Source of the DNA: Planctomycetota bacterium
Lineage (GTDB): Bacteria; Planctomycetota; UBA8108; UBA1146
Assembly (NCBI GenBank): GCA_028825265.1
Contig: JAPKAM010000004.1
Location: forward strand, 333 to 64,332
Direction of reading: 5' to 3'
DNA length: 64,000 bases
The number at the start of each line of letters is the position of its first letter. Position 1 is the first letter of the stretch. The translations under genes were made by a program, and so were the position numbers. This document shows positions 28,353-43,788 of the stretch, piece after piece. The notes under the pieces were generated by a model. It worked only from the letters and a program-made list of their open reading frames with translations. It did no database searches and was not told the DNA's origin.

Positions 28353-28994
28353 ATGAACCCTTCACCACGAGCCGGATTCACCCTGGTCGAACTACTGGTG
28401 GTGATTGCCATCATCGGCGTTTTGGCTGGACTGGGTTCGAAGATGCTGAGCTTTGCCACCAAGAGCAGTGCCATCGGCCTGGCCGAACAGGAGATGCAAC
28501 GATTGGTGCTGGGCGTGGAAACCTATCAACTCGATTTCGGCGATTTCCCACCCAGTTCGATGGAGCAAGAGTACGAGATCTCCGGCAATGGTCTAGACGA
28601 GGGAAACGAGAGTTTGGTGGCCCATCTCGCCAGTCGCTCGAGAGGCCGGAGTTACTTCGAGTTCAAGGAGGAGTTTCTCGAGAATCTCGATGATGATCGT
28701 ATCGGTGATGCAGATCTCTATCAGCAGATGCGCTGGGTTTTCGGCGATGAACAACTGAGAGAATACGTAGATCCCTGGGGAGTTCCTTACGTCTACATTC
28801 ACAATAGAGATTACGGCATCGATTACTCTGTGACTCAAGAATCAGGCCCGATCAAGATCCACGCAGGGAATTCTCGTAAAACTGCGACCTATCATGAACC
28901 ACTTCGTTTCCAGATATGGTCAGCGGGGCCGGATGGTATTCACCAGATCGATGTCGATGATCCGGATGCCTCGGATGACGTGGCGCCATGGTGA
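28353..28994 (+). CDS. gspG: Major pseudopilin, GspG-like (type II secretion / type IV pilin-like)
   Basis: Class III signal RAG|FTLVELLVVIAIIGVLAGL with Glu+5, GspG 'DPWGVPYVY' motif, and C-terminal SAGPDG (cf. GspG GADG). 213 aa against a canonical ~145. Confidence 0.7.
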   Translation: MNPSPRAGFTLVELLVVIAIIGVLAGLGSKMLSFATKSSAIGLAEQEMQRLVLGVETYQLDFGDFPPSSMEQEYEISGNGLDEGNESLVAHLASRSRGRSYFEFKEEFLENLDDDRIGDADLYQQMRWVFGDEQLREYVDPWGVPYVYIHNRDYGIDYSVTQESGPIKIHAGNSRKTATYHEPLRFQIWSAGPDGIHQIDVDDPDASDDVAPW

Positions 28995-30376
28995 GAAGAA
29001 GTTTCGATTCGAATCACGGCGTGACCTTGATCGAGCTCCTGGTGGTGCTTTCGATCCTGTCGGTCATGCTCGGAATGTCGATGTCCGTTTTTCGGTCCTT
29101 CGGCGAGGCCCAGACGCTGGAGATCGCTTCCAGCAGCATCTCTACGACGGTCAGAGCTGCGCGGAACTGGTCGATCTCATCCGGGATGCAGAGCCGGATT
29201 CTGGTCGATCCAGAGCATCGTAAAGTGACCGCCTTCGGATTTCAATTGGCGGGTGCCTGGGGTTTCGAGGATTTTTACGGCCTTCCTGAAAAGCAGTTAT
29301 TGCCGCCGGGATCGGTGACCCTCGGTGCCTATCGCCAGCCAGCAGAACTGGTCGGCCAGGTGGAACCCTGTGCCGGATCGATCGGTCGAGGGGCGATGTT
29401 CGTCAACGATGGTGCCGCATTTCGTGCTCGTCGCCTGGCCAGTTACGAGGGTCGTAATGGGGTTTCCATCGAAGCGTGGGTTCATTTCTGGAAGCCGCCC
29501 TGGCGTCCAGAAGATGGAATTGAGCCGGATGGGGGCTTTTCCGATCCGCGGCGGGAGATGCGCATGGCCGTGCTTGGCATTCCCGATTCATTCGAGATGG
29601 GAATCCTCGGCGATGGCGCCGTTTACATGCAGATCGGTGATCCGCAGAGGGCCATCGATGGGCAATACATCCGCGCCCAGACGGAGGGATCTGCGGTCCT
29701 TGCGGATCGATGGGTACACCTGAGAGCCACTTTTGATTGTACCGAACTGATTCTCGAGGTGGACGGCGTCGAGCAGGCTTGGATTCCTGAGGGCTTCGAA
29801 ATGATCGAACAGTGGCCGCCATTACCCACTGCAATCCCTCACAGCGATTCCGATCTGTGGATTAGTCATCCCAATCGATTTTTCATGGGAGCCATCGATC
29901 AGGTGGTCCTGAGGGTGGCAACGACACCAGAGATCGTCGAATTGCCCATCGATATCGAACTGTTGGGTCCCACGACGCTGATTTATCTCGACAGCCGAGG
30001 GGCTCTCGATCCGTTGCTGCACAATTTCCCTGTGGTGATTCACGTGGCGGAGGTCGGAGATTTTTCTGAAATTGAAGCCGCAGATGGAACTGCAGTTGCA
30101 AAAGAAGGATTCAGGGATCGCATCGAACGAGAGCGACAGGAACAGGCGGCTAGAGACGGTGAGATCGTCCAGGCATTTGGCGATCCCATCTCGGATCTGA
30201 TGAAGCATCTGGAAGGCTGGGAAACCGATCCAGATGCTCTCATCGAAGAGGAAGAAGAGAAGAACCCGGTGCCATTGACTCCAGGAATGCACTACGGAAT
30301 TGGCGATGTGGATGGAACATCAGTGCTTCGTCTTCATAACATCGTGATTGATATGACGGGAGCTATTCGTGGTTAA
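28988..30376 (+). CDS. Large pseudopilin-like protein (GspH-like position)
   Basis: Prepilin N-terminus NHG|VTLIELLVVLSIL with Glu+5. 462 aa. Confidence 0.5.
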   Translation: MVRRSFDSNHGVTLIELLVVLSILSVMLGMSMSVFRSFGEAQTLEIASSSISTTVRAARNWSISSGMQSRILVDPEHRKVTAFGFQLAGAWGFEDFYGLPEKQLLPPGSVTLGAYRQPAELVGQVEPCAGSIGRGAMFVNDGAAFRARRLASYEGRNGVSIEAWVHFWKPPWRPEDGIEPDGGFSDPRREMRMAVLGIPDSFEMGILGDGAVYMQIGDPQRAIDGQYIRAQTEGSAVLADRWVHLRATFDCTELILEVDGVEQAWIPEGFEMIEQWPPLPTAIPHSDSDLWISHPNRFFMGAIDQVVLRVATTPEIVELPIDIELLGPTTLIYLDSRGALDPLLHNFPVVIHVAEVGDFSEIEAADGTAVAKEGFRDRIERERQEQAARDGEIVQAFGDPISDLMKHLEGWETDPDALIEEEEEKNPVPLTPGMHYGIGDVDGTSVLRLHNIVIDMTGAIRG

Positions 30377-33300
30377 GCCAGAGAGAAATCTTGAACGAGG
30401 AATGGCCTTGTTGATGGTCATCCTGGTGCTCTCCGCGCTGGCAGCGATCGGTACTCCGTTTGTGATTTCGATGAAACTTCAAGAAAGAGGTGCCGCTCGG
30501 GCAATCGCACAGCAGCACGCACAACTCGCTGCGCAAAGTGCCAGAGGACATGCTCTTAGCCGATTGTTCGATACTCATCATAGTCGAGAACGAGATCGCT
30601 GGCGCCCCGGAGTGGAGGCTCCTGACTTGGTCGATGGACTGGACGAATTGAAAGTCGACTTTCCTGGTGTGATCACAACTGTACCTGTGGTCGGTACACC
30701 TCCGGAGGATTTTCAAATTCGAGGTAATTCTCAGGTGATCCTCGATGCTCGCGTGACTGACGAGCAGGGCAAGATCAACATCAACTCTGCGATGCCTAAT
30801 CTCATGGGCAACTTGTTGGCCGGGAGTCATCTGTCCGAAGCGATCAGCTATGAAACGGATCTGGGAGAGTTGCCACTCGACGACACCTCTTCTTTTCCCG
30901 CGGATGATGATCCGGAGACGATTGATGGTGTCGTCGTGATCCTCAATCCGATCTTCTTCACTGTCGAGGCGATTTCATACACTGGAAAAACTGAAACAGC
31001 GTTGACCGGGATCTTCAGGGGACAATACCTGTCGGGGACATGGGAGCACCAGAAAGGTTGGCCAGTCTTCGACCTTCGTGGGTTGAAGGTCTTCTTGCAT
31101 CGGCTCGCCAATCTCTCTGACGGTGAAATCGCGACCTTCCGTACTCCGATTGGAATCCGTCAGATTGCCGATTGGTCGGTGGTTCCCTATTTCCTCAAGA
31201 CCCTGGCAGTGGTGGGGCTCAATTTCAAGAACATGGCGGAATGGGGTCTGACCACAGAGATGCTGGTGCGTGCGGGGATCGATCCATCCTTGCTCCAGGG
31301 GGATACAGAACAAGTGGATGAAGCGGAATATCGTAAAGCACGAAAGATGTTTCTCGATAATAACATCCCCAAGGATGTGGTCGATCTGGTCGAGTCGATT
31401 CGTGGAAAAGCTGCGGTGATCGAAGCGGCTGAGGTGGTCGCGGGCTTTGGTCTGACCAAGGCCAGGGGGAATGCATTCAAGGGTGTCTATCTGACCTTCA
31501 TCGCACCGGAGCTGAAGAAGATCAAGAAGAGGGGCAAGAGTTATTTCCCCAGCGCCATCCTCGCTTACCAGGAAATTTTTGATCTCCCCGGAATGGAAAC
31601 CTTTTCAGCTTTTGAGTTTGAGCAAATCCGCGACCTGATCACGACCACCTCGACCCAGCCGAGGGCATGGTCGCAGGAACAGATGGTCGAGGGAGAGATC
31701 ACCGATAGTGCGCTACTCGGAGTCCCGCAGATGCGTCTGCCACGGTATGACTTCTTCAATCCTGGAACTGTGGTGAGAATCCGCAGCATCGATGATCCCT
31801 CGAAGGTTGAATATGGACTCGCTGCGGGGGCTTTCCCGACTCCTCGGGGAGGATTCCGGGGATTGGGAGCTGGCTCCATCTTTCAGGGCGGTGTGATTCT
31901 CAAGGAACCCTTGAAATATCAGTGGGGCGAGCGCGAGGCGATGGTTAGTGCCGCACTTCGGCATCCGGTCAACATCAATACCGCCCCTCGTAGGGTCCTC
32001 GAAGCGGTCTTGACCGGGCTCTCCACCGATCGGTTCGAGGCACGATTCAACGGAGTGACCGTCGAAGAAGCGCGTGGATTGACCGACCTCCTGATGGAAG
32101 CGATGCCGATTTCTGGTTTCGCCGCTTTGCGGGAGGTGGTGGAAGCCGCTCAGATGAGTGGCGTCCTCGATGGCGGTGATTCCGAAGCGATTCTCATTAA
32201 CGCACTGAACCCAAATCAGCCACGACTCTCCATCTCCACCACGGGATTTTGTTACGCCACTTCTGAGATCTACACCGTTGAATCGACCGGAGTGGCCAGG
32301 AGCCCGGTGGGTACTCCTCAAGCGACGGTTCGCCTTCGTGAGGTGATCGAGGTTGCACCTCCGGATCCGCTTTCGCTAAGGCTGGAAACGCAGGAGGACT
32401 GGTCTTCCATCTTTCTCACACGTAATTCGAGCGGTGGGATGTTCTCTCGATTCAACACGACTTTCGTCCCCGGTCGGGCGTCGAACCTGGTGATCAGTGG
32501 TCCGATCCCTCTCAACCGTCGCAAGTTCACCGGGCCTTCTCTCGATGAAGGAACTCTTCGTGGAGCGACCATCTCGTATGATCGAGATTCAGGGAACTAC
32601 GGTTTCGGCTCGGTCGGCTTGCTGGATGTCGAGCACTTTAGCGAAACCATCGAGGGGTATGAACTGGAAGACGGTTCCTGGAAGCGATCGATTCTCCTCC
32701 AGCAAGAAACCGAACCGACTCGGGGCCGAGGACGCAGGGGGGCGGCGCCTGATCCCCAAGTTTTGGATCAAAATTCGACTGAAGACGCCCTTTCGACCAT
32801 CCCTGCGATGATTGATTTCTGGTACCGCCCGCGCTGGGGCTCGCGAAGTGGAAACCGAATTATCTTCGATACCGTGGGCCCGACCCTGGATCGATATCGT
32901 GATCGTGTGCGATTGTTCTTCTCCGGGGATACACAGGAACTGGTGCTGCAGGTCTTTGATGAGACCGGATCTGCAGTGGCGTGGGATACCAATGTTCTAC
33001 CTGCGGCAGAGGTTCGGCACTCGGTCACGACCATCAACTTTGCAGATGACACCTGGTATCACATCTCTGCGGGATGGAGATCGACGAGGCCTGGAGATCT
33101 GGTGCTGATGATCGATCGTCGGCCGGTCGGTCGTCAGTCCTGGTTGTCACGCCTCAATGGTGCGCTTTCATTCTCGGGCAATCGTGTTTCCATCGTCGAT
33201 GGTGACATGGCGACCCGGTTCCCCCCGATGGGCACCTTGCTGGTGGGTTCTGAAGCGATCGATTACTCGGGTCGGGAAGGGGCTGCCTTCATCGTCAGGT

Positions 33301-36092
33301 CACCAGGGCTCAACGGCTCTCCTCCGATCGGGCGCGGAGTTCGTGGGACGGTTCGGTCGAGCCATGCTGCGGGCACTCCTGTAAGGCTTCTGGGGTATTC
33401 ATTGCCCATCGCCAATTCTGATCCACGACGCGGACTGGCCGATTCCTCCAGTGACATCATCATCGGTCCTGGTGGGGCATCTCTGGAGATTGAGATCACT
33501 CCGACGATGAGGGTTGCGGCCTTCAACACCGGTACAGGTGCAGTGGAATTGACGCCTGCGACATTTTCACGTGCCTCGACCCAGATCCCCTTCTCTGCCG
33601 GAAGTCCCGTGACCAGTACCCTGGAATTGGAGCCGTTTGCGGCCACTTCGTCTTCCTTGCTGGTTCAGACCAACGGAAGCCATCCTCTGGAACTGGGTTT
33701 TCCGCCGCGAGGATATCTTCATATCCAACAGTGGACCCAGCAGGGGATCGAAAGGGCGCAATTGGTGGCGTCTGAATTCGCCAAGTACTCCTCCATCACT
33801 CCGGGACCGATCCCTGGCCTCTATCGCTTCACCGCCATGGGTAGAGCGCTGCTAAACTCGACGGCGACCCAGGGTGTCATCACGGCCACCTCCACAACCA
33901 CCCTGCAGGTCAGGGGTGTTTCTATCGAGTCGAATGCGACCGATTTGAATCTGAGTTATGCACCTTCCGGTGTGATTCAGATCGATTACATGCCTGGCTC
34001 GCAGAGTCTCGGGCTGCTCCAGGATGCCGAATGGATTCGATACACGCAGATCGCCGAGGGCAAGTTCTTCATCTGTGATCCGGATCAGGTCGAGGCCTTT
34101 CGTGGCTTCACCGGGGACCAGTACATCAACACCAGTGATCCATTCCGTCGTAATCGGCCACTGTGGGATATGAATGGCATCGTGCGCCATGCTGCCGGAC
34201 AGGAGATCACTCAGGTGGTCCGCGCGGTCGGGGCCTCTGCTGGATTTGGTGACGAAGTGATCCTCGGGGATGGCTATGGCGATCCGACTACCCGGCTGCG
34301 AGAAGAAACGCCGCTGAGAGTTCGCAAGGTCCGCGAAACCGACAGTGGCACCTATGTCAGCTTTTACTGGCCTCCTGAGGGAATCTATCGGCCGGGACAG
34401 GATCCACGAATCCGTCGTTTCCCCAGTGGTGGTTTACCTTCTTCATCCAACGGGGAGATTCGCTTCGGGTCATCGATGATCAGCGGCGATGGGATCGATG
34501 CACCGGGGACCCTGGACGAGGTTCGTTTTAGTCGCCTCGACTCGAGTGACGTCGACACCTATGCATTTCCCGCCGCTTCCAATGGTGGGTTCCGGACGAT
34601 GCCGATCCAGGCTTCGCCGGGATTGCCGTCGGGGGTTCGAACCGAGGTGCTGCGTAGCGGATACACGGAACAGGATTCTGAACAGCCGGGCGGAGTGCTC
34701 GACAAGATTCACTTGTTGGCTCGTTCAAAACTCACCGCTTCCGCTGTGACGCCACCGGAAGGTGCCACTGATTTCACTGCAGGATCGGTTCGATCCTTTT
34801 CAGTCGGCGATCCTCGAGGATTTGGGCTGGGAAAACGAGAAGGATTGTTTCAGGTCGATGATGAGGTGATGCATTACACCTTTGACCCCGGCTCGGTCGA
34901 GGCCTCGGTGGTGATCCAGTTGGAGCAGGATCTTCCGCGCGATCCTTACCTGGATGAAGATGCGCTCGGTGAAGGGGAGGTGGTTCCCTATGACCCCAAC
35001 CGAGACCTGAGAGTGGAAGTGGTCAACATTGTCCGGGTCAACAACACCGCCAACCTACCTCCCAACGGCGGATTCCTTGAGATGATCTCCGGACCCACCA
35101 ACGAAGTGCTCTACTACCAGCAAGCTTCGAACGGGGTGCTACGCAATGTGCTGCGCGGCCAGCTCGGATCATCGGTGGGTGGGTATGTTTATCAGTGGTC
35201 CTACACCGACGCCGCCGGTGCTGTTCAAGTTGTGACCAATACCCACCAATTGCGGTTGATCCCCAGTCGTACCATCGATGTGATGACCCGAGGAATGCTC
35301 ACCACGGAACGTGCTAGCAATGAGTTGGGACACGAACCTCTGGTTCCGCTCCCCAGTATCCCAGTGGCACGGCTCGCCGGGCAGGTCGCTGAATCGGGTT
35401 TGACGCTGGAGGTGATGGGACTTCCCGGAAACGAAGGTGAGAATCGCCAGCTGCTGGGATTCCCTTCCGGCGAGGGATATCTGCTGGTGGATGACGGAAT
35501 CGTCTCGACACCCGACGAGATCATCGCTCACACCGGAGCGCAGGGCGGTAGCTTTGGACTGTTCCGTGACGATCGCACTGGCAAGGGAATTTTCCGCGGT
35601 CGCTTCGGCACCGATTTTAAGGTCCATGCCGCGGGTACCCCTGTCATCGAACTTCTGGCTCGACATCACGATCGTTATCAGCCGCTGGTGGAATCGAAGG
35701 ATCTCCAGTATCTCGAGCGGGCCTGGACGATGCCAGGAACGATGTGGGACCGCATCAGTTGGGCTGTGGAACAGTCTCGAAACCGTTCCACCGCCGGAAC
35801 CGTACGAATACTCGCCCGTTTTGATGGCATCCCTGGTTGGGATTCCACTCCGACCAATGCACCGGGTGGGCTCTATCTGTTCGACGATCCAGATGACGCG
35901 AATCGACTGGGGAGATTTGGTGATGCGATTGAAATTCGGATTCACTATCGTCACCGAAAAGGAGCCTTTGGCCTGACGCGTCAGTCGGGGATCTGGAATG
36001 ACGAATGGAAACATCTTCCCATCTTGAAAAGCGTAGCGATCGAGCACCGCAAGGAGTGGCGTATCTTGCATCACGAGGAATACCCGTATTGA
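30369..36092 (+). CDS. Giant GspK-like minor pseudopilin (1907 aa)
   Basis: GTG start. GspK-type N-terminus RG|MALLMVILVLSALAAIG lacking Glu+5, as in GspK. GspK family motif HPVNINTAPRRVLEAVLTGLS, followed by >1500 aa of extra sequence. Confidence 0.5.
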   Translation: MVKPERNLERGMALLMVILVLSALAAIGTPFVISMKLQERGAARAIAQQHAQLAAQSARGHALSRLFDTHHSRERDRWRPGVEAPDLVDGLDELKVDFPGVITTVPVVGTPPEDFQIRGNSQVILDARVTDEQGKININSAMPNLMGNLLAGSHLSEAISYETDLGELPLDDTSSFPADDDPETIDGVVVILNPIFFTVEAISYTGKTETALTGIFRGQYLSGTWEHQKGWPVFDLRGLKVFLHRLANLSDGEIATFRTPIGIRQIADWSVVPYFLKTLAVVGLNFKNMAEWGLTTEMLVRAGIDPSLLQGDTEQVDEAEYRKARKMFLDNNIPKDVVDLVESIRGKAAVIEAAEVVAGFGLTKARGNAFKGVYLTFIAPELKKIKKRGKSYFPSAILAYQEIFDLPGMETFSAFEFEQIRDLITTTSTQPRAWSQEQMVEGEITDSALLGVPQMRLPRYDFFNPGTVVRIRSIDDPSKVEYGLAAGAFPTPRGGFRGLGAGSIFQGGVILKEPLKYQWGEREAMVSAALRHPVNINTAPRRVLEAVLTGLSTDRFEARFNGVTVEEARGLTDLLMEAMPISGFAALREVVEAAQMSGVLDGGDSEAILINALNPNQPRLSISTTGFCYATSEIYTVESTGVARSPVGTPQATVRLREVIEVAPPDPLSLRLETQEDWSSIFLTRNSSGGMFSRFNTTFVPGRASNLVISGPIPLNRRKFTGPSLDEGTLRGATISYDRDSGNYGFGSVGLLDVEHFSETIEGYELEDGSWKRSILLQQETEPTRGRGRRGAAPDPQVLDQNSTEDALSTIPAMIDFWYRPRWGSRSGNRIIFDTVGPTLDRYRDRVRLFFSGDTQELVLQVFDETGSAVAWDTNVLPAAEVRHSVTTINFADDTWYHISAGWRSTRPGDLVLMIDRRPVGRQSWLSRLNGALSFSGNRVSIVDGDMATRFPPMGTLLVGSEAIDYSGREGAAFIVRSPGLNGSPPIGRGVRGTVRSSHAAGTPVRLLGYSLPIANSDPRRGLADSSSDIIIGPGGASLEIEITPTMRVAAFNTGTGAVELTPATFSRASTQIPFSAGSPVTSTLELEPFAATSSSLLVQTNGSHPLELGFPPRGYLHIQQWTQQGIERAQLVASEFAKYSSITPGPIPGLYRFTAMGRALLNSTATQGVITATSTTTLQVRGVSIESNATDLNLSYAPSGVIQIDYMPGSQSLGLLQDAEWIRYTQIAEGKFFICDPDQVEAFRGFTGDQYINTSDPFRRNRPLWDMNGIVRHAAGQEITQVVRAVGASAGFGDEVILGDGYGDPTTRLREETPLRVRKVRETDSGTYVSFYWPPEGIYRPGQDPRIRRFPSGGLPSSSNGEIRFGSSMISGDGIDAPGTLDEVRFSRLDSSDVDTYAFPAASNGGFRTMPIQASPGLPSGVRTEVLRSGYTEQDSEQPGGVLDKIHLLARSKLTASAVTPPEGATDFTAGSVRSFSVGDPRGFGLGKREGLFQVDDEVMHYTFDPGSVEASVVIQLEQDLPRDPYLDEDALGEGEVVPYDPNRDLRVEVVNIVRVNNTANLPPNGGFLEMISGPTNEVLYYQQASNGVLRNVLRGQLGSSVGGYVYQWSYTDAAGAVQVVTNTHQLRLIPSRTIDVMTRGMLTTERASNELGHEPLVPLPSIPVARLAGQVAESGLTLEVMGLPGNEGENRQLLGFPSGEGYLLVDDGIVSTPDEIIAHTGAQGGSFGLFRDDRTGKGIFRGRFGTDFKVHAAGTPVIELLARHHDRYQPLVESKDLQYLERAWTMPGTMWDRISWAVEQSRNRSTAGTVRILARFDGIPGWDSTPTNAPGGLYLFDDPDDANRLGRFGDAIEIRIHYRHRKGAFGLTRQSGIWNDEWKHLPILKSVAIEHRKEWRILHHEEYPY

Positions 36093-37174
36093 TGAACAAA
36101 GAACAAGGAATGACTCTGATCGAGATTCTCGTATCGCTGGGTATCTTCGTGATGCTCGGGAGTGGCCTGGTTGTGTTTCTGAAAGATGGAATTTCCACCT
36201 GGCAAGTCGGCGAATCGAGACGTGAAGCGATCGAACGATCGGAGGCGATTCTGCAGCCGCTTTGTGCCGATCTGAGATCTCTCTTCTCGCAACCCGATCC
36301 TGGACCTGGTGGTGGACTCGTCGATGTACTGCTGCTGTGTGATCGTGACGCTCTGGGTCGATCCCGATTGCGCATGGTCAGTGTGCTTGACGAGGAGGTT
36401 CGCAATCCGATCACCCGGATTGCTGGATCGCTGACGGGCGGTCTTGCCGACATCGATTACCGAAATGATGCGATGGAAGCTCGGCTGGGAATTCTTCGTG
36501 CCCCTGGCGGCCTGTGCGAGGTGAGCTATTCGATGGGACCCGCGGCAGGTTCCGAAGTGTTGTGGAAGGGGTTCAAGAGCCCCATCGGGGGCGAAGGCAC
36601 CCTTTTCAATCAGGCCAACTTGGCGCCCGATGTCGATGGCACTCCGATGCGGAGTCGCCCCATCGCCGATGGTGTGCTCTACATCGAATGGTCCTTCTGG
36701 GGTGGAGATCGTCGTCGCTGGGTCGATGGCAAAATCCAGCCCCCGATCACCCGCTGGGATTCGACTCGCGGTATCTTGCCGATGGATCGAAAAACTGGAA
36801 TTCGCTGGGATCCTGACAGTCGAGATGATCCCTCCGATGATGTGTTCCCCGACACCGTCGAGGTGCTGCTGGTTCTGAGACCTGCCCGGTCGATGGCTCT
36901 AGCAAGACTGATTTCGGATATCGACGATAGAACCGCTGAGATTCGGGTTGATTCCACCGCGCAGTATCCAGTGGGTCCTGATCATTACATCCGCATCGAC
37001 TCCGAATGGATTCGCGTGGGGCGCATCACACGAGGTGCTTTTCTCGATTGCGAAAGAGGAATGCGAGGTTCGGTAGCGCAGCAACACGCACGTCTGCGGC
37101 CGGTGGTCCACGGCTCTGAATTCCGGAAAACGGTTCGGATTCCAGGATCCCGGGATCCGGGGGGGCAGCGATGA
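36092..37174 (+). CDS. Pseudopilin-like protein (GspJ-like position)
   Basis: QG|MTLIEILVSLGIFVMLGS with Glu+5. TGATG overlap with the giant gene; the ORF track starts it earlier, at 36005. Confidence 0.55.
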   Translation: MNKEQGMTLIEILVSLGIFVMLGSGLVVFLKDGISTWQVGESRREAIERSEAILQPLCADLRSLFSQPDPGPGGGLVDVLLLCDRDALGRSRLRMVSVLDEEVRNPITRIAGSLTGGLADIDYRNDAMEARLGILRAPGGLCEVSYSMGPAAGSEVLWKGFKSPIGGEGTLFNQANLAPDVDGTPMRSRPIADGVLYIEWSFWGGDRRRWVDGKIQPPITRWDSTRGILPMDRKTGIRWDPDSRDDPSDDVFPDTVEVLLVLRPARSMALARLISDIDDRTAEIRVDSTAQYPVGPDHYIRIDSEWIRVGRITRGAFLDCERGMRGSVAQQHARLRPVVHGSEFRKTVRIPGSRDPGGQR

Positions 37175-37596
37175 AAGTGCAGCACAAAGAATCAGGATTC
37201 ACCTTGCTCGAGGTGGTCGTGGCTCTCGGAATCCTGACGGTCGGAGTCAGTGCTGCCATCTCCCTGTTCGCCGCAGGTACCGCTTCGCATCGGCGTGCGG
37301 TCGATCGGATCCGGGCCATCGAGGTCTCGGAAGTGGTCCTCTCCGCCCTCGAAGGGACGATTCGCGACGGAGCAACGGTGACCGATTTGATCCAGAATCC
37401 ACCGTGGCAACCATTGATCTCTCGGTGGCCTGGAATCTCAGTGGAGGTGCGTTATGGCACCGTTCCCAAGGTAGACTTCACCGATGAGCTGCTGGTCGAG
37501 ATTCATGTGCAGTGGATCTCTCGCGGGCTCGATAGTGAGGAAGTGTTTCGACAGATCGTTCCGAGGATGAGAAGTATCCGATTGGATGCGCCCTGA
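37171..37596 (+). CDS. Small pseudopilin (GspI-like)
   Basis: SG|FTLLEVVVALGILTVGVSAAISLF with Glu+5. 141 aa. ATGA overlap. Confidence 0.6.
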   Translation: MKVQHKESGFTLLEVVVALGILTVGVSAAISLFAAGTASHRRAVDRIRAIEVSEVVLSALEGTIRDGATVTDLIQNPPWQPLISRWPGISVEVRYGTVPKVDFTDELLVEIHVQWISRGLDSEEVFRQIVPRMRSIRLDAP

Positions 37597-37608
37597 GACG
37601 GGATCGGG

Positions 37609-38730
37609 TCAGACGCTGACCACTGCGCGCTCGATCAACTCTACCGGTAAAGCTCCACTACCACTCTTGAGTTGCCAGTCCATCTCGATCAAGGTTTCGA
37701 TGATCCGCAGGGTTCTGGGAAGATCGCAACTTTTGTACTGCTTGCGAATCCTCGGCAGGAACGGGCGGGCGATCCCTGCTTGTTCGAGAATTTGCTGTTC
37801 TCCTCCGCCTTCGGCAACGATTCGATGCACGCTTCTCAACTCTCGGGCACGTTTGAGCGATAGGGCGAGAAACTGAAGCAACAACCTCTGGGGGTCTCGA
37901 ACTCGTTGGTTCTTTTCATCGAGAGCCCCTCGGGCAACGATATCGGAAAGCACCCGGAGTGATCGTGCTCGGTCCTGCTCGAACCAGGAATCCACCAGTT
38001 CAAAAGCGGACCCGTCGCCTCCGGCCGCACTGTTATCGATGACGATGCTCTCGGAGACCTGCTGAATCTGACGAGAATCACAGATGGTGGAGATCTTCTC
38101 GATGGTTCCGGCGAGTTGATCCATCTGCGGACCGATTCGATCGATGAGAAGTTGGGCCACCGGAGCCGTCACCTTCAAAGATTGTTTTTGAAATCGATGG
38201 ATCACCCAGGTATTCAACTCGTGTTCCCAAGGCTTGGCATCGGGCTGCCAGGGGGGTGGCCGGTGAAAGGGTCGATCTGCGGAGATGGAAAGACCGAATT
38301 TGGTGATCGCCTTGGCCACCTTGCTTCGACCGTCGAGTGCGTCGGCGGTGAGGATCAGCAGGGATCCGGTGGGGGCCGCTGAGAAAAACTTGACCCAGGC
38401 ATCGGGATCTGATTTGAACCAGTTCTGAGCGTCCTGGACGATCACTACAGGACCTCCTCCGAACAGGCTCGGAGTCCTCAGTTCGTCAAATATTTCACGA
38501 ATCTGATCGTCGGAGGCGGAGCGGGTTCCCTGGTAGCGGATGATCGAGTCGGAGTCTGGAGTGCCGCCCGGGAGGGATTCCAGGAGCATTTCGATCGCTT
38601 CACGGCGCAGCAGTTGTTCCTGTCCTACCACCATGGAGATGGCCGGTGGCCCCTCTTTGAGTCGTGCGGGCAGGGTGGTCACGGTCACCTTGCGGTCAGA
38701 AGATCGAGTTCTGGAAGCTGATTTCGCCAT
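37609..38730 (-). CDS. holA: DNA polymerase III delta subunit
   Basis: MAKSASR...VVGQEQLLRREAIEML...LILTADALDGRSKVAKAI. The ORF-track extension to 39135 is an in-frame stop-free run in high-GC DNA. The ATG at 38730 gives 373 aa. Confidence 0.7.
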   Translation of the reverse strand: MAKSASRTRSSDRKVTVTTLPARLKEGPPAISMVVGQEQLLRREAIEMLLESLPGGTPDSDSIIRYQGTRSASDDQIREIFDELRTPSLFGGGPVVIVQDAQNWFKSDPDAWVKFFSAAPTGSLLILTADALDGRSKVAKAITKFGLSISADRPFHRPPPWQPDAKPWEHELNTWVIHRFQKQSLKVTAPVAQLLIDRIGPQMDQLAGTIEKISTICDSRQIQQVSESIVIDNSAAGGDGSAFELVDSWFEQDRARSLRVLSDIVARGALDEKNQRVRDPQRLLLQFLALSLKRARELRSVHRIVAEGGGEQQILEQAGIARPFLPRIRKQYKSCDLPRTLRIIETLIEMDWQLKSGSGALPVELIERAVVSV

Positions 38731-38825
38731 GACCCCAGTGTCCGGCCGTATCTGGCTCAATTCAACTGTTGGTCCTTGAACCGGGGTAAAAGGTTTTGTA
38801 TCTAGGGCCGTGACAGGATTGATCC

Positions 38826-38995
38826 GGGGCAACCTGGATCGGAAGTGTGGTGAGATTCCACCGCGGTGCCGCCGCTGTAACCGGGGACAACCCCTGCACT
38901 CCAGGTTTGAGCCTGGAAAGCCACTACGGGATTCCGTGGCAAGGCGCAGGGAGAGGATGATCCGGGAGCCAGAAGACCTCCTGTCAGGCGAATCG
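38826..38995 (+). promoter_or_regulatory. Probable cobalamin (AdoCbl) riboswitch; boundaries approximate
   Basis: GGUGAGAUUCCACCGCGGUGCCGCCGCUGUAACCGGGGA matches the cobalamin aptamer core (GGUGnnAAnUCCnnnGCGGUCCCGCCACUGUnAnCGGnGA). Downstream GAGCCAGAAGACCUCC matches the B12-box (btuB AAGCCCGAAGACCUGCC). It is followed by a hairpin, GGCCCG-UUUGUG-CGGGUC. Confidence 0.6.
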
Positions 38996-39095
38996 GGCCC
39001 GTTTGTGCGGGTCTGATTCCAACCTGGATGGCTCCGGTGTACGCACAGTGCGTGACTCCGGCATCCAGCACTCCGAGCAGAGAGGTGAGGTCCCG

Positions 39096-40463
39096 TTGCT
39101 TTCAGCGCTTTTTTCACTCCTATCTGTGGATTCAACCACTACACCTTTGCGAATCTTTGTGCTGATGGGTTGTTGGGTGCCGGTCCTCGGTTTTTGCGGG
39201 GATCCGATCGCCGAGGTTTCATTTTCGAATCCTTCTTCGATCGTCGATTCTCACCCTTACTCGATTGTGATCGATGACCTTCACCAGTTTGGCTATGCCT
39301 CGATCTGTGGGGATGTGGCTCCGATGGGTGAGCCGGTCGAGGATCACAGCGGCCATCAGGTGGTCGAGTTTGATGCTCGCTCTCTCAAGGTGCTGAGAAC
39401 TTTCGATGTCGGCTACTACCCGACCGATATGTTGATCTCTGGCTCCGATCTGTGGGTCAGTTGCTCCACCGTCAGCAGTCTGTTCAGGGTCGATCTGGTC
39501 AGCGGCGAGGTCTCTTCGGTACCGTTCACGGACAGTTCTGGATCCGACATCGGATATCCATCGGGACTGGCCCTCGGCTGGAACGGGGAAATCATCGTCT
39601 CTTCCAATGGCGGTAATTTTGACGGATCCGATGAAAACATCGTGATTCTGAATCCGCTGACCGAGGAAGTTATTCAGCACATCGAAGTCGCAGGAGGCAT
39701 CTCTACCATGGCGGCACTCGAAGATGGTTCCCTGCTGGTTCCGGTCGGTTTCCCCGGCAATGACTTCACGGCGGCGCCGCTGTTGCAGTGGATCAACCCG
39801 ATCGATGGTCAACTGCTCGATCAACTCATCATCGATGTCGAGACTTCAGATTTTCCTGCACCGAGTGACCTGGAGATCCTGGATGACCAAAGTGCGCTGC
39901 TGACCATCTTCGGAGGAAGTGCGGTGGTTTACCGCATCGACCTCATCAACCGGACCCTGATGATGGAATACCCGATGGATTCGGTCGATCCGGTTCAGAG
40001 TGCCGTGGTCCAGGGGGATTCCGACACCTTCCTCGTGGCTGAATATTTCGCAGGAACCGTGTCACGATATCAGCTCGATAGCGGTGAACTGGTCGAAACT
40101 CTCACCGGGGGAGATCTTCCCAATCGGATCTGTGTCTCGGGAGGGCGGATTTTTACCACCCAACAGGGTGTCGAGTCGATCACCGTTCACGGCGGGGTCG
40201 GGGCCTTTGTCCGCGCGGATCTGAATCTGGACGGACAGGTGGATCTGGCCGATCCGATCCGATTACTCAATTACTTGTTTCTTGGGACATCGCTGGATTG
40301 CCTCGATTCCGCCGACAGCAACGACGATGGGGCGCTGGATCTCTCCGATGTGATCCACATCTTATCTTTCCTCTTTTCACAGGGGCCGTCTCCGCTATAC
40401 CCTTTCCCAGTGGCCGGTGGAGACCTGAGCGATGACAACCTGGATTGCGAGACCACCGGATGA
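39096..40463 (+). CDS. Beta-propeller (YVTN/NHL-like repeat) protein with C-terminal dockerin-like Ca-binding domain
   Basis: Repeated blade-like units (VGYYPTDMLISGSDLWVSCS...). C-terminal DLNLDGQVDLADPIRLLNYLF...DSNDDGALDLSDVIHILSFLF (dockerin type-I-like repeats). Start uncertain: TTG at 39096 follows AGGTGAGG; ATG at 39165. The ORF-track ATG at 39003 lies inside the riboswitch. Confidence 0.5.
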   Translation: MLSALFSLLSVDSTTTPLRIFVLMGCWVPVLGFCGDPIAEVSFSNPSSIVDSHPYSIVIDDLHQFGYASICGDVAPMGEPVEDHSGHQVVEFDARSLKVLRTFDVGYYPTDMLISGSDLWVSCSTVSSLFRVDLVSGEVSSVPFTDSSGSDIGYPSGLALGWNGEIIVSSNGGNFDGSDENIVILNPLTEEVIQHIEVAGGISTMAALEDGSLLVPVGFPGNDFTAAPLLQWINPIDGQLLDQLIIDVETSDFPAPSDLEILDDQSALLTIFGGSAVVYRIDLINRTLMMEYPMDSVDPVQSAVVQGDSDTFLVAEYFAGTVSRYQLDSGELVETLTGGDLPNRICVSGGRIFTTQQGVESITVHGGVGAFVRADLNLDGQVDLADPIRLLNYLFLGTSLDCLDSADSNDDGALDLSDVIHILSFLFSQGPSPLYPFPVAGGDLSDDNLDCETTG

Positions 40464-40504: not shown

Positions 40505-41776
40505 ATGTCCTTCCCCAGCAAGATTCTGCTCTGTTGTGCGATCGTTTTTTCGACTTGGATCGGTTTTCCGACAGGTCTTCTCGGTCAGGGGGCCTGGTAC
40601 GGTGACCAGCAGAATCTTTGGGTCCACGGGGAGGCGGGTTCGACACCCATAGTGAATCTCTCCACCGATCTGCGAGCCATCGCTCGAACCGCCGATGGCG
40701 GCGGTTGGATCGCCATCGATGGCAGCCAGCAGGTGATTCATGTCGATGCCAGTGGATCCATCGTCGAAGTGGTCGATACCGTGGTGGGCGTACAGTCGCT
40801 GGCCATCGATGCCAGCGGCCTGGTGTGGGGAACCCGACCGGGACTCGATGATTTGATCGTGATCGAATCGGGTTCGGGGATCATCGCCACTCATTCGGTC
40901 GGCTCGGTCCCCTATGGTCTCTCGATCGATTCCGATGGACGGATCTGGGTCAGTTGCTCCTATGCGAACCAGATCGATCTTCTCGATGGATCCGGGTCGC
41001 TGCTTGCGAGTTTCCCGGTGGGTTTCTTCCCGACCGGAATCAGTGCGGCTCACGGGGGAGGTGTCTGGGTTGCCGAGAAAGGCGGCTTGAAGCGATTGTC
41101 TTCTACCGGAGAGGTGCTGTGGAGCGAGACGGTCGGCACCTTTCCCATCGCCGTCACCACCGACCTGCAGGGGCGAGCTTGGTTTTGCTGTCAAACCAGC
41201 GATCAGGTAGTGGTGGTGGGCGATCTGGGTGTCGAATCGATCATCGATGTGCCCGCTCGTCCATTGGGCATCAGTGCCAACGGAGATGGGACCGTTACGG
41301 TGGTTTGTCGGGATGGATCGGCACTGGTGAGGATCTCCTCTCAGAGTGAGATCCTTTCGTTGGAAATGGTTGCGAATCCCATCGGTCACGGCGATCTGAC
41401 TGGCCTCCAGCGAGCTTTGCTGGCGGATCCACTCGGAGATCAGGATTTCGACGGGGTGGCCAATCTCGAAGAGGCGCAGTTCGGGTTCAATCCCCTCGAT
41501 GCGGCTTCGGTTCCGGCACTCTTTGTCCGAGGCGATACCAACCGCGATGGAATGGTCGATCTCGCGGACGCGATTCATGAATTGTTGGTGCTGTTTGGGG
41601 TGGCCACGAGCCCCTGCCTGGAAGCCTTGGATGTGGATGACGATGCAAGGTTGACCCTGGCAGATCCGATCCGGATCCTTGATTTTGTCTTTTCTGCGGG
41701 ACCTCCTCCTGGGGCTCCATTCCCCGAATACGGTCTGGATCCATCTCCTATGCAGGGTTTTCCTTGCTCCCCCTGA
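40505..41776 (+). CDS. Paralogous beta-propeller protein with C-terminal dockerin-like domain
   Basis: Signal peptide MSFPSKILLCCAIVFSTWIGFPTGLLGQ. YVTN-like repeats (VGSVPYGLSIDSDGRIWVSCS..). C-terminal RGDTNRDGMVDLADAIHELLVLF...LDVDDDARLTLADPIRILDFVF. Confidence 0.55.
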   Translation: MSFPSKILLCCAIVFSTWIGFPTGLLGQGAWYGDQQNLWVHGEAGSTPIVNLSTDLRAIARTADGGGWIAIDGSQQVIHVDASGSIVEVVDTVVGVQSLAIDASGLVWGTRPGLDDLIVIESGSGIIATHSVGSVPYGLSIDSDGRIWVSCSYANQIDLLDGSGSLLASFPVGFFPTGISAAHGGGVWVAEKGGLKRLSSTGEVLWSETVGTFPIAVTTDLQGRAWFCCQTSDQVVVVGDLGVESIIDVPARPLGISANGDGTVTVVCRDGSALVRISSQSEILSLEMVANPIGHGDLTGLQRALLADPLGDQDFDGVANLEEAQFGFNPLDAASVPALFVRGDTNRDGMVDLADAIHELLVLFGVATSPCLEALDVDDDARLTLADPIRILDFVFSAGPPPGAPFPEYGLDPSPMQGFPCSP

Positions 41777-42030: not shown

Positions 42031-42822
42031 TTGAACAATAACAAGGCGGAGCCGGAGCACCAGATCGCCGTATTTGTCGACCTCGACAACATCGCCATCG
42101 GTGTCAAGGAAGCCAAAATTGCCAAACTGGATATTTCCAAGATTCTCGACCGACTGGTCGAGAAGGGCAAAATCACAGTCAAGCGAGCTTACGCTGACTG
42201 GTCCAACTGGACTCATTACAAGCGACCCTTTCATGAGTGTGCGATCGAACTGATCGACATTCCCCAGCGCAGGATGGGTGGCAAGAATAGCGCTGATATC
42301 AAGATGGTGGTCGATGCCCTGGAACTGTCTTACTCGAAACCGCACGTCGATACCTTCGTGTTGATCTCGGGTGATAGTGACTTCTCGCCACTGGTCTCTC
42401 AGTTACGAGAGAACAACAAGAAGATCATCGGGCTCGGGGTCAAGCATTCATCCAGTAACCTGCTCATCGATAACTGCGATGAGTTCATCTTTTACGAAGA
42501 TCTGGTTCGGACTCGCAAGAAGAGAATCCGCAAGACGACCAAGAAGGCCTCTCCCAAGGTCAGCAAAGATCAAGAGGCCGCTTTCTCACTGTTGATCAGT
42601 TCGATCGCTGCCCTGCAACGAGAGAACTACGAAATTATCTGGGCGTCGATGGTCAAGCAAACAATGAAGCGCAAGCAGCCGACCTTTAGCGAGGAATATC
42701 ACGGCTACACCCACTTTTCCAAGTTGCTTGTCGATGCCGAAAAGCATCAATTGATCAGTGTCCACAAGGACCAGCGATCGGGCACCTACATCATCGACGA
42801 GTTGCTCGAAGACGAGATCTAG
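42031..42822 (+). CDS. NYN-domain (PIN-like RNase) protein with C-terminal OST-HTH/LOTUS domain
   Basis: IAVFVDLDNIAIG...RAYADWSNW...FVLISGDSDFSPL (NYN). C-terminal LLISSIAALQRENYEIIWASMV...HGYTHFSKLL (OST-HTH-like). Confidence 0.65.
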   Translation: MNNNKAEPEHQIAVFVDLDNIAIGVKEAKIAKLDISKILDRLVEKGKITVKRAYADWSNWTHYKRPFHECAIELIDIPQRRMGGKNSADIKMVVDALELSYSKPHVDTFVLISGDSDFSPLVSQLRENNKKIIGLGVKHSSSNLLIDNCDEFIFYEDLVRTRKKRIRKTTKKASPKVSKDQEAAFSLLISSIAALQRENYEIIWASMVKQTMKRKQPTFSEEYHGYTHFSKLLVDAEKHQLISVHKDQRSGTYIIDELLEDEI

Positions 42823-43658
42823 TCCTGATCGATACGATCCTCTGGCAAGCATGCGATTCGGTGAGTCCTTCCGCCCGCTAGCGAGAAGGCCACCAGGTCA
42901 CCTCCATAGACGCAACCCGCGTCGATGCTGATGTGCTTCTCATGGCGAACCAGCCCTAGAGCGGCCCAGTGGCCAGAGACACTCGCGTGTTCCCGGGTGA
43001 GTCGATTCTCGATCTGGAACCAAGGGGTCACCGATGGAGGCCAAGAACTTGGATGTCCGGTCCACTGATCCGCCAGTGACAGGTCTGCATTGAATCCTCT
43101 CAGACGGGTCAGGATGGCTGCGGTATATCCATCAGGATCGGTGATGTTTCGGTACCAAGACCAATCACCGCTGCGAAGACGATGGGAGAGACTCTCAGCT
43201 CTGATCAGCACTTCGGCGACACTCCACTGCGGATGGATTCCCGCGTGAACCAACAACCACGGGGTTCCGGTCGAATCGGATTGGAGCAGGGCGAGAGGCT
43301 TTTGCTCCAGCCAACGAACCCAGCACCACGAGGATGGAGGTGAAGGTTCCGCTTCTTCGAGGCACGGTTCCAGCAGATCACCAGGGCGAGATTTCGCCAC
43401 CTGTGCATGAACCGCAAGCAGATGCAGATCATGATTGCCGAGAATCACCTGGGCACGATCCCCCAGCGAATCGACGGTTTTTAGCACCTCGAGACTGGCG
43501 GGGCCCTTACCGACGAGGTCCCCGACGAAAACGAATCGACTATCAAGATCGATTTCCAGCAACGAATCGAGCAGCTTTTTGAGGGTGGAGTGGCAACCGT
43601 GGACATCCCCGATGACCCAGGTGTCGGGACCTTCCTGCTCCGTAGTGGGTGAATTCAA
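42819..43658 (-). CDS. ApaH/PrpE-like metallophosphoesterase (bis(5'-nucleosyl)-tetraphosphatase-like)
   Basis: VIGDVHGCH...GDLVGKGP...GNHD motifs. The ORF track's GTG start at 43745 lies inside tRNA-Arg. The first start past the tRNA is the TTG at 43658, so the start is uncertain. Confidence 0.55.
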   Translation of the reverse strand: MNSPTTEQEGPDTWVIGDVHGCHSTLKKLLDSLLEIDLDSRFVFVGDLVGKGPASLEVLKTVDSLGDRAQVILGNHDLHLLAVHAQVAKSRPGDLLEPCLEEAEPSPPSSWCWVRWLEQKPLALLQSDSTGTPWLLVHAGIHPQWSVAEVLIRAESLSHRLRSGDWSWYRNITDPDGYTAAILTRLRGFNADLSLADQWTGHPSSWPPSVTPWFQIENRLTREHASVSGHWAALGLVRHEKHISIDAGCVYGGDLVAFSLAGGRTHRIACLPEDRIDQD

Positions 43659-43715
43659 AGATCCTCCCGCAAAGAAGCCCGCGCCGGGAGCGAGGGCTCC
43701 CGGCGCCGATTTGAA

Positions 43716-43788
43716 TGACCCTGGCACGATTCGAACGTGCGACACCCGGCTTCGGAGGCCGGTGCTCTATCCACTGAGCTACAGGGCC
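43716..43788 (-). tRNA. tRNA-Arg (anticodon CCG)
   Basis: Manual fold: acceptor GGCCCUG/CAGGGUC, D-arm GCUC-AGUGGAUA-GAGC, anticodon stem CCGGC/GCCGG with loop CUCCGAA, T-arm GCACG-UUCGAAU-CGUGC, discriminator A. Confidence 0.85.

What the first reader, a model, noticed from the sequence alone, without database searches (positions are those of the whole stretch)
38826..38995. Probable cobalamin riboswitch in the holA - beta-propeller intergenic region
The plus-strand RNA contains GGUGAGAUUCCACCGCGGUGCCGCCGCUGUAACCGGGGA, a near-consensus cobalamin aptamer core. About 90 nt downstream it contains GAGCCAGAAGACCUCC, a close match to the B12-box (btuB: AAGCCCGAAGACCUGCC). A hairpin and a purine-rich AGGTGAGG immediately before a TTG candidate start follow, consistent with an RBS-sequestering expression platform. 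The ORF-track ATG at 39003 sits inside this element and is unlikely to be a real start.
Basis: partly seen in the sequence, partly recalled or inferred. Interest (0 to 1): 0.75.

Follow-up and report, generated by a model that had tools for sequence, protein, structure and literature searches.

The report
Cobalamin riboswitch controlling secreted propeller genes
This is a genuine vitamin-B12-sensing RNA switch of a well-known class; the only unusual thing is that, throughout one group of marine Planctomycetota, it sits in front of two exported beta-propeller proteins of unknown function, which may be a new kind of B12-scavenging protein.

Summary
The finding is confirmed. Rfam RF00174 (Cobalamin) matches window 38798-38998 on the + strand at 70.8 bits (gathering score 31.5, E 1.9e-15), over the full model, with no competing family. 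A cobalamin riboswitch is found at the same position (after divergent holA, before the propeller gene) in all 25 related loci examined, where the downstream protein is only 40-81% identical. Across 16 distinct aptamers, 20 of 44 helix pairs show compensatory changes.

Just before the start codon (TTG 39096) every locus has a short covarying hairpin (P13, 39071-39082). Its loop, CG[A/C]GCA, is complementary to aptamer loop L5 (UGCCG), and its 3' arm runs into the Shine-Dalgarno. This is the classical L5-L13 kissing-loop design, so I infer that translation is switched off when B12 is bound.

The regulated genes are two co-directional exported beta-propellers. A is YVTN-like with no Pfam family. 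B is NHL/Vgb-lyase-like. Both end in a dockerin-like module. Neither is a demonstrable BtuG homologue, and no other B12 gene lies nearby.

The riboswitch is a new member of a known kind. The cargo suggests a role in B12 acquisition, but nothing here tests that.

The parts
38798..38998 (+). Cobalamin riboswitch aptamer (RF00174, with P6 peripheral extension)
   Evidence: 70.8 bits, gathering score 31.5, E 1.9e-15, model 1-189/189; the only family hit; 20 of 44 predicted pairs show compensatory changes across 16 homologous aptamers.
38867..38871 (+). L5 loop UGCCG (closed by GG 38865-66 / CC 38872-73), the proposed kissing-loop partner
   Evidence: cmscan alignment. Invariant in all 16 aligned aptamers. 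It differs at one base from the published L5 consensus UCCCG (PMC10327014).
38966..38981 (+). B12 box GAGCCAGAAGACCUCC
   Evidence: sequence. Aligned to the B12-box positions of RF00174. AGAAGACC is invariant across loci.
38990..39068 (+). Structured J1/13 linker: two hairpins (38990-39019 and 39024-39068), specific to this subclade
   Evidence: Folds. Present, with sequence changes that keep the pairing, in L030/L036/L037. Absent from most other loci, where the distance from B12 box to L13 is 15-51 nt.
39071..39082 (+). P13 hairpin: stem CUC/GAG with loop L13 CGAGCA (39074-39079)
   Evidence: Exactly one copy in each of 24 sequences, always just 5' of the start codon. Stem covariation score 0.391 against 0.223 in shuffles (0 of 500 reach it); pair types UA:9 CG:6 UG:2 and CG:6 UA:3 AU:1 GC:1. 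The loop is invariant except for its third base.
39083..39090 (+). Shine-Dalgarno AGGUGAGG, directly abutting the P13 3' arm
   Evidence: sequence, 5 nt before TTG 39096. Purine-rich SD-like sequence in or next to the P13 3' arm in all loci.
39096..40463 (+). Propeller A: exported 7-bladed YVTN-like beta-propeller with a C-terminal dockerin-like module (455 aa, TTG start)
   Evidence: Identical to NCBI hypothetical protein OSB09_00950. AF2 model pLDDT 89.8. Generic propeller neighbours only. No Pfam or NCBIfam family. Dockerin-like C-terminus.
40505..41776 (+). Propeller B: exported NHL/Vgb-lyase-type beta-propeller with the same dockerin-like module (probable ATG start at 40505; the ORF opens at 40445)
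   Evidence: PF24684 Vgb_lyase 56.8 bits against a cutoff of 50. Profile hits Vgb lyase 2qc5 at 5e-21 and PknD at 8e-16. AF2 pLDDT 84.5. Always directly downstream of A.
37609..38730 (-). holA (DNA polymerase III delta), divergent upstream neighbour; not regulated by the element
   Evidence: Pfam DNA_pol3_delta and delta_C. On the opposite strand, transcribed away from the riboswitch.

Best explanation
Window 38798-38998 (+) is a bona fide cobalamin riboswitch aptamer of the RF00174 type, with the P6 peripheral extension typical of adenosylcobalamin-sensing class I. It lies in the 5' leader of a two-gene unit (propeller A 39096-40463, propeller B about 40505-41776). Shown here: the aptamer, its conservation and covariation, and a conserved covarying hairpin (P13, 39071-39082) whose loop CGAGCA is complementary to aptamer loop L5 (UGCCG) with one bulged base, and whose 3' arm runs into the Shine-Dalgarno 5 nt before the TTG start. 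Inferred: when B12 is bound, L5 and L13 form the kissing loop, P13 is locked, and the adjacent ribosome-binding site is occluded, so translation of propeller A (and, by coupling or mRNA decay, propeller B) is switched off. When B12 is scarce, the weak 3-5 bp P13 opens and the genes are expressed. Both products carry N-terminal signal-like hydrophobic segments and a C-terminal dockerin-like module that is found on many exported Planctomycetota proteins, so they are probably secreted or held at the cell surface. More speculatively (about 0.35-0.4): because they are made only when B12 is low, as btuB and Bacteroides BtuG are, they may act in capturing corrinoids outside the cell.
For: Aptamer. 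Conservation: RF00174 above the gathering score in 10/10, 13/13 and 2/2 related loci, with identical synteny, although protein A is only 40-81% identical. Aptamer helices: 20 of 44 pairs with compensatory changes. P13/L13: a single copy at a fixed position relative to the start codon, while its distance from the B12 box varies from 15 to 183 nt. Stem covariation 0.391 against 0.223 in shuffles, 0 of 500, with slid controls at or below 0.247. L5 UGCCG and L13 CG-x-GCA are both invariant, and only the predicted bulged base varies. Compared with the published consensus pairing (L5 UCCCG), both sides have changed in a compensatory way, and a bulge is the rule in AdoCbl-family kissing loops (PMC10327014; PMC5028336). 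No intrinsic terminator between aptamer and start beyond chance level. Exported propellers. The dockerin-like module occurs on many other exported proteins. Specificity: no riboswitch in 133 kb around 13 other dockerin-protein genes. Precedent: the B12-riboswitch-controlled, surface-exposed 7-bladed propeller BtuG binds B12 (PMC6143338; bioRxiv 2024.02.16.580637).
Confidence: 0.75

Rival explanations
1. The aptamer is the same, but the output differs. The switch might activate expression on B12 binding, or act mainly through Rho-dependent termination or mRNA decay rather than by blocking the ribosome-binding site.
For: An activating corrinoid riboswitch that also uses an L5-L13 kissing loop exists (A. 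halodurans cobT; PMC10327014). [quoted passage not shown] In an isolated fold of 38960-39130, the 3' part of the B12 box pairs with the SD region. If real, that pairing would sequester the SD in the ligand-free state.
Against: That alternative pairing is not conserved. Loci L028, L035, L047 and L050 have GACCGGCCUG in place of GACCUCCUG, with no matching change in the SD region. In the full-length fold the aptamer P1 forms instead. No terminator-like hairpin competes with P13. The known activating example works through a terminator that is mutually exclusive with P13, and there is no such terminator here. An SD directly abutting P13 is the layout of the repressing translational examples.
Confidence: 0.15
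2. The riboswitch is real, but the two propellers have nothing to do with B12 uptake. They could be surface adhesins or extracellular enzymes (lyase- or lactonase-like) that are useful under B12 starvation, for example for attaching to B12-producing partners or for scavenging a product of B12-dependent metabolism such as methionine.
Against: Known cobalamin-riboswitch regulons are dominated by B12 synthesis, B12 or cobalt transport, and B12-independent isozymes (established knowledge; Degnan et al. 2014, as cited in PMC6143338). Exported proteins fit the transport/capture category best, and an exported 7-bladed propeller has a direct precedent in BtuG. B scores far below the NCBIfam Vgb cutoffs (26 bits against 600).
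Confidence: 0.4
3. Chance resemblance, a decaying relic, or a different structured RNA such as RNase P.
For: None found.
Against: 70.8 bits over the full-length model. No other Rfam family at E<=1 on either strand. Present in 25 of 25 loci, with compensatory changes in 20 helix pairs.
Confidence: 0.01

Closest known systems
Rfam RF00174 cobalamin riboswitches of the AdoCbl (class I) type, e.g. E. coli btuB leader
   Same: Full aptamer core, B12 box, P6 peripheral extension, L5 loop. A downstream P13 hairpin has a loop complementary to L5 and lies next to the RBS. Located in the 5' leader of a gene for an exported protein that is probably needed when B12 is scarce.
   Different: L5 is UGCCG rather than the consensus UCCCG, with a matching L13 (CG-x-GCA). 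In this subclade the J1/13 linker carries about 75 nt of extra hairpins. The regulated genes are not btuB, cob or metE-type genes.
env8HyCbl riboswitch (translational kissing-loop switch; PMC5028336)
   Same: Regulation through an L5-L13 kissing loop with unpaired nucleotide(s). L13 is presented on a short stem-loop. The RBS is part of, or adjacent to, SL13. Linker length is variable.
   Different: env8 is a class II (AdoCbl-variant) aptamer without the P6 extension, and its RBS lies inside L13. Here the aptamer is RF00174-type and the SD lies in, and 3' of, the P13 3' arm.
Bacteroides BtuG1/2/3 (PDB 3DSM, 8BAI, 8BAZ, 8PTD; PMC6143338, bioRxiv 2024.02.16.580637)
   Same: Exported 7-bladed beta-propeller encoded behind a B12 riboswitch. 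Belongs to the YVTN-like structural neighbourhood: 1L0Q is the top Foldseek hit for A and the structure Wexler et al. overlaid on BtuG2.
   Different: No significant sequence homology (E 0.004-0.03, not specific). BtuG is a lipoprotein encoded next to btuB and was reported only in Bacteroidetes. Here there is an SPase-I-type signal, a dockerin-like tail, a second NHL-type propeller as partner, and no btuB nearby. B12 binding is untested.
Virginiamycin B lyase / PknD-sensor NHL propellers (PF24684; PDB 2Z2N, 2QC5, 1RWI)
   Different: B is exported, carries a dockerin-like module, scores far below the NCBIfam Vgb cutoffs, and is B12-regulated. The catalytic residues were not examined.

Membership tests
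Rfam RF00174 Cobalamin riboswitch | Covariance-model score at or above the curated gathering score, on the strand of the downstream gene | tested here: met
   70.8 bits against 31.5, + strand, model 1-189/189. The only family at E<=1.
Rfam RF00174 Cobalamin riboswitch | B12 box and conserved core (GGUG..CC T-loop, GCCACUG, AGCCAGAAGACC) | tested here: met
   Present at 38849-38887, 38921-38927 and 38966-38981. Invariant across 16 homologous aptamers.
Rfam RF00174 Cobalamin riboswitch | Helices maintained by compensatory substitutions in homologues | tested here: met
   20 of 44 predicted pairs have changes on both sides that keep pairing.
Rfam RF00174 Cobalamin riboswitch | Direct binding of a corrinoid ligand, and ligand selectivity | not testable with these tools
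   Requires in-line probing or ITC. AdoCbl preference is inferred only from the presence of the P6 extension (own knowledge).
Kissing-loop (L5-L13) translational expression platform | L13 presented on a stem-loop, complementary to L5 with at least one unpaired nucleotide, at or beside the RBS | tested here: met
   P13 stem covaries. L13 CG[A/C]GCA against L5 UGCCG gives 5 pairs plus 1 bulge, and the bulged base is the only variable one. The SD abuts the 3' arm. Criteria taken from PMC5028336 and PMC10327014.
Kissing-loop (L5-L13) translational expression platform | L5-L13 pairing demonstrated by covariation or mutation | tested here: inconclusive
   Both loops are invariant within the clade. 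The only support is a compensatory difference from the published consensus UCCCG.
BtuG family (Bacteroidetes B12-binding surface lipoproteins) | Sequence homology to BtuG1-3 (Wexler et al. treated e-values above 1e-10 as divergent; their exact BlastP cutoff was not seen) | tested here: not met
   Family A profile against PDB: BtuG2 E 0.004-0.006 (best-stretch E-value 0.075), BtuG1 E 0.028, weaker than hydrazine synthase beta at 2e-5. Family B gives no BtuG hit.
BtuG family (Bacteroidetes B12-binding surface lipoproteins) | Seven-bladed beta-propeller fold | tested here: met
BtuG family (Bacteroidetes B12-binding surface lipoproteins) | Lipoprotein encoded adjacent to a btuB TonB-dependent transporter | tested here: not met
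   No TonB-dependent receptor gene in the window or in any of the conserved loci. N-termini look like SPase-I signals (A-x-A) in most homologues (by eye).
BtuG family (Bacteroidetes B12-binding surface lipoproteins) | High-affinity corrinoid binding | not testable with these tools
   Needs purified protein.
Dockerin type I (PF00404) | Pfam gathering score; duplicated Ca-binding loop-helix motif | tested here: inconclusive
   A C-terminus scores 19.4 bits against a cutoff of 22.9; B scores 11.1 bits. The family A profile hits cellulosomal dockerins 1DAQ/2MTE at E 0.0016. Two DxDxDG-like repeats and helices are visible in the model.
Virginiamycin B lyase family (PF24684), propeller B | Pfam gathering score | tested here: met
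   56.8 bits against 50. However, NCBIfam Vgb(A)/(B) give 22-26 bits against 600, so B is a family-level relative and not a Vgb enzyme.

The most novel reading that the evidence does not exclude
The propeller A / propeller B pair is a previously unrecognised extracellular corrinoid-capture system of marine Planctomycetota. It would be a functional analogue of Bacteroides BtuG that arose independently: two different beta-propellers tethered to the cell surface by dockerin-like modules and made only when intracellular B12 is low.
Probability: 0.35. Interest if true: 0.65.

Novelty: new member of a known kind. Interest (0 to 1): 0.4.

Why it matters
The RNA itself is routine, and any Rfam-based annotation would find it. 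What it adds is a functional clue for two conserved proteins that otherwise have none. A B12 sensor is kept in front of them across a whole clade of uncultured marine Planctomycetota, so their expression is tied to B12 status. B12 is a scarce, traded micronutrient in the ocean, and how Planctomycetota acquire it is poorly known. Extracellular B12-binding propellers have so far been described only in gut Bacteroidetes. The locus therefore gives a concrete, testable candidate for a new B12-acquisition component. It also shows that several public gene calls wrongly extend propeller A through the riboswitch.

Tried and rejected
1. Intrinsic terminator as the expression platform. Only two terminator-like sites were found, which is chance level. 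One begins at the start codon and the other is inside the ORF. Rejected.
2. An alternative helix between the 3' part of the B12 box / P1 3' strand (GACCUCCUG) and the SD region, seen in an isolated fold. It is not conserved in L028, L035, L047 or L050 and is absent from the full-length MFE fold. Rejected as a conserved feature.
3. L5 (GAUUC-containing L4/T-loop region) pairing with GAAUC at 38990. This was considered by eye. It lies inside the subclade-specific linker hairpin, is absent elsewhere, and was dropped.
5. The genome-contig scan with protein A recovered only the dockerin-like tail in unrelated proteins. Those loci were used as negative controls instead.
6. Profile re-search of the 5.8-billion-protein set. 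No further full-length relatives were found.
8. Sigma-70 promoter scan of the leader: none found. This is uninformative for Planctomycetota.
9. Literature search for earlier links between cobalamin/B12 riboswitches and Planctomycetota propellers: nothing relevant.
10. The L13 motif alone is not statistically unusual within a single window (1 match against 1.13 expected). Its weight comes only from its conserved position across loci.

Full report
OBSERVATION. The aptamer core GGUGAGAUUCCACCGCGGUGCCGCCGCUGUAACCGGGGA is at 38849-38887. The B12 box GAGCCAGAAGACCUCC is at 38966-38981. AGGTGAGG is at 39083-39090 and an in-frame TTG at 39096. Rfam RF00174 (Cobalamin) matches 38798-38998 (+) at 70.8 bits against a gathering score of 31.5 (E 1.9e-15), covering model positions 1-189 of 189. 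The only other Rfam hits in the 64-kb window are three tRNAs. A permissive E-value scan of 38700-39200 on both strands returns only RF00174, so the RNase P and other-family alternatives are excluded. There are minor corrections. The element begins at 38798, not 38826. The B12 box is 79 nt, not about 90 nt, after the core. The ORF-track start at 39003 is TTG, not ATG.

CONTEXT. Upstream and divergent is holA (37609-38730, minus strand; Pfam DNA_pol3_delta and delta_C). Before that come pilin-like genes with N-terminal methylation motifs and a 1907-aa protein. Downstream on the + strand are two ORFs, A (39096-40463) and B (ORF opens at 40445, probable ATG at 40505, ends 41776). Then follow an NYN-domain gene, a metallophosphoesterase (minus strand), a tRNA and trkH/trkA. 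None of the roughly 39 larger ORFs scanned against Pfam, spread across the whole window, belongs to a B12-related family. Protein A is identical to the NCBI entry 'MAG: hypothetical protein OSB09_00950 [Planctomycetota bacterium]' (455 aa). This confirms TTG 39096 as the annotated start.

CONSERVATION. Protein A has about 30 full-length relatives (40-81% identity), all unnamed and all from Planctomycetota MAGs or marine metagenomes. I fetched their genomic context and the gene order is the same everywhere: pilin-like genes, holA (minus strand), a gap, A, B, then NYN. RF00174 scores above its gathering threshold in the holA-A gap, on the strand of A, in 10 of 10, 13 of 13 and 2 of 2 loci scanned (42-81 bits, with one at 36). 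Some of these loci are duplicates of the same contig in different databases, but at least 16 aptamer sequences are distinct. On their alignment, RNAalifold predicts 44 pairs, and 20 of them show changes on both sides that keep the pair. As a control, 133 kb around 13 unrelated Planctomycetota genes that share only the dockerin-like tail contains no Rfam hit at all. The element is therefore real, under selection, and specific to this operon.

EXPRESSION PLATFORM. I compared the leaders. Every sequence carries exactly one copy of YC-CG[A/C]GCA-GRR immediately upstream of the start codon, whereas its distance from the B12 box ranges from 15 to 183 nt. It forms a hairpin with the invariant loop CG[A/C]GCA and a 3-5 bp stem that covaries. 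Pair types at one stem position are UA:9, CG:6 and UG:2. At another they are CG:6, UA:3, AU:1 and GC:1. The covariation score is 0.391 against 0.223 in shuffles (0 of 500 reach it), and slid controls are at or below 0.247. In the window the stem is 39071-73 / 39080-82 and the loop 39074-79. The 3' arm continues directly into the Shine-Dalgarno AGGUGAGG (39083-90), 5 nt before TTG 39096. The aptamer's L5 loop is UGCCG (38867-71) and is invariant in all aptamers. It is complementary to CG-x-GCA, and the only variable loop base is the one left unpaired. The literature gives an L5 consensus of UCCCG and describes the L5-L13 kissing loop. In that design L13 must sit on a stem-loop at the RBS, and in the AdoCbl family at least one nucleotide is always unpaired (PMC10327014; PMC5028336). 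Compared with the consensus pairing, this clade has changed both partners in a compensatory way (C to G in L5, G to C in L13). I therefore infer the classical mechanism: bound B12 bridges L5 and L13, P13 is locked, the adjacent RBS is occluded, and translation is repressed. This is an inference from anatomy and I put it at about 0.7. Because the two loops do not vary within the clade, the kissing loop itself could not be tested by covariation. There is no terminator beyond chance expectation. A tempting alternative helix between the 3' part of the B12 box and the SD is not conserved. They are a structured insertion in the J1/13 linker found only in the window's close relatives, where pairing is kept despite sequence changes.

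INTERPRETATION. Three things are firmly shown: a class-I-type cobalamin riboswitch, its conserved linkage to the A-B gene pair, and a conserved SD-adjacent P13/L13 hairpin. Repression of translation by B12 through the kissing loop is inferred. A role for A and B in extracellular capture of corrinoids is speculative (about 0.35-0.4). It rests on regulatory logic (made when B12 is scarce), on their export, and on the BtuG precedent. The main rival for the cargo is that these are adhesins or extracellular enzymes needed under B12 limitation for some other reason. The main rival for the RNA mechanism is an ON switch or a Rho/decay-mediated output.

NOVELTY AND SCORE. The RNA is a new member of a known family, and any Rfam-based pipeline would detect it. 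That alone is of low interest. The conserved, clade-wide coupling to two uncharacterised exported propeller-dockerin proteins is a useful and testable lead into B12 acquisition in marine Planctomycetota. I give an overall interest of 0.4. The novel reading (a new extracellular B12-capture system) has a probability of about 0.35 and would merit about 0.65 if true.

Noticed in passing
L030 2886-, L033 5001-, L025 5001-; proteins P0003, P0008, P0013, P0019; window 39003-39095: Public gene calls for propeller A homologues often start upstream, inside the riboswitch. The extra N-terminal residues ('RRRERTIRKPEDLLS') are the translated B12 box. The window's longest ORF (TTG 39003) makes the same error.
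   Followed up: yes
window 38990-39068: The linker between the aptamer P1 and P13 carries two extra hairpins, including a palindromic ACGCACAGUGCGU core. They are found only in the window's closest relatives (L030, L036-L039), where the distance from B12 box to L13 is 94-95 nt, against 15-51 nt in most other loci. Published work on env8 shows that long linkers slow kissing-loop docking, so the effect of this structured insertion on regulation is unclear.
   Followed up: partly
window 40191-40463 and 41480-41776; loci L001-L023: A dockerin-like C-terminal module with two conserved cysteines is shared by A, B and many unrelated exported Planctomycetota proteins (peptidases, FG-GAP, PKD, lamin-tail). 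No cohesin-like partner is known from this analysis. One hit (L001) is in a MAG labelled Nanoarchaeota, which may be a binning artefact.
   Followed up: partly
window 28988-37596: A conserved cluster lies immediately upstream of holA in all related loci. It contains pilin- or pseudopilin-like genes (N-terminal methylation motif), one with a laminin-G/ConA-like domain, and a 1907-aa protein with no Pfam domain. Its function is unknown, and no link to the riboswitch operon is evident beyond synteny.
   Followed up: no
window 42819-43745 (-) and tRNA 43716-43788 (-): The mechanical ORF for the metallophosphoesterase (GTG 43745) overlaps the 3' part of a tRNA gene by 30 nt, so its real start is probably further downstream. 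The tRNA is conserved at this position in the related loci.
   Followed up: no
window 18515-23217: A sigma-54 activator with FHA and GAF domains is followed by an 891-aa protein with two FHA domains. This looks like a signalling module and is unrelated to the finding.
   Followed up: no
window 39096-40463 (family alignment A1): Family A has strikingly invariant loop motifs (SNGGxFDGSxxN, DxFTAxP, VDTxDFPxPxD) rich in Asp, Asn and Ser. These suggest a conserved ligand- or metal-binding site, but they could not be mapped onto the model with the tools available.
   Followed up: no
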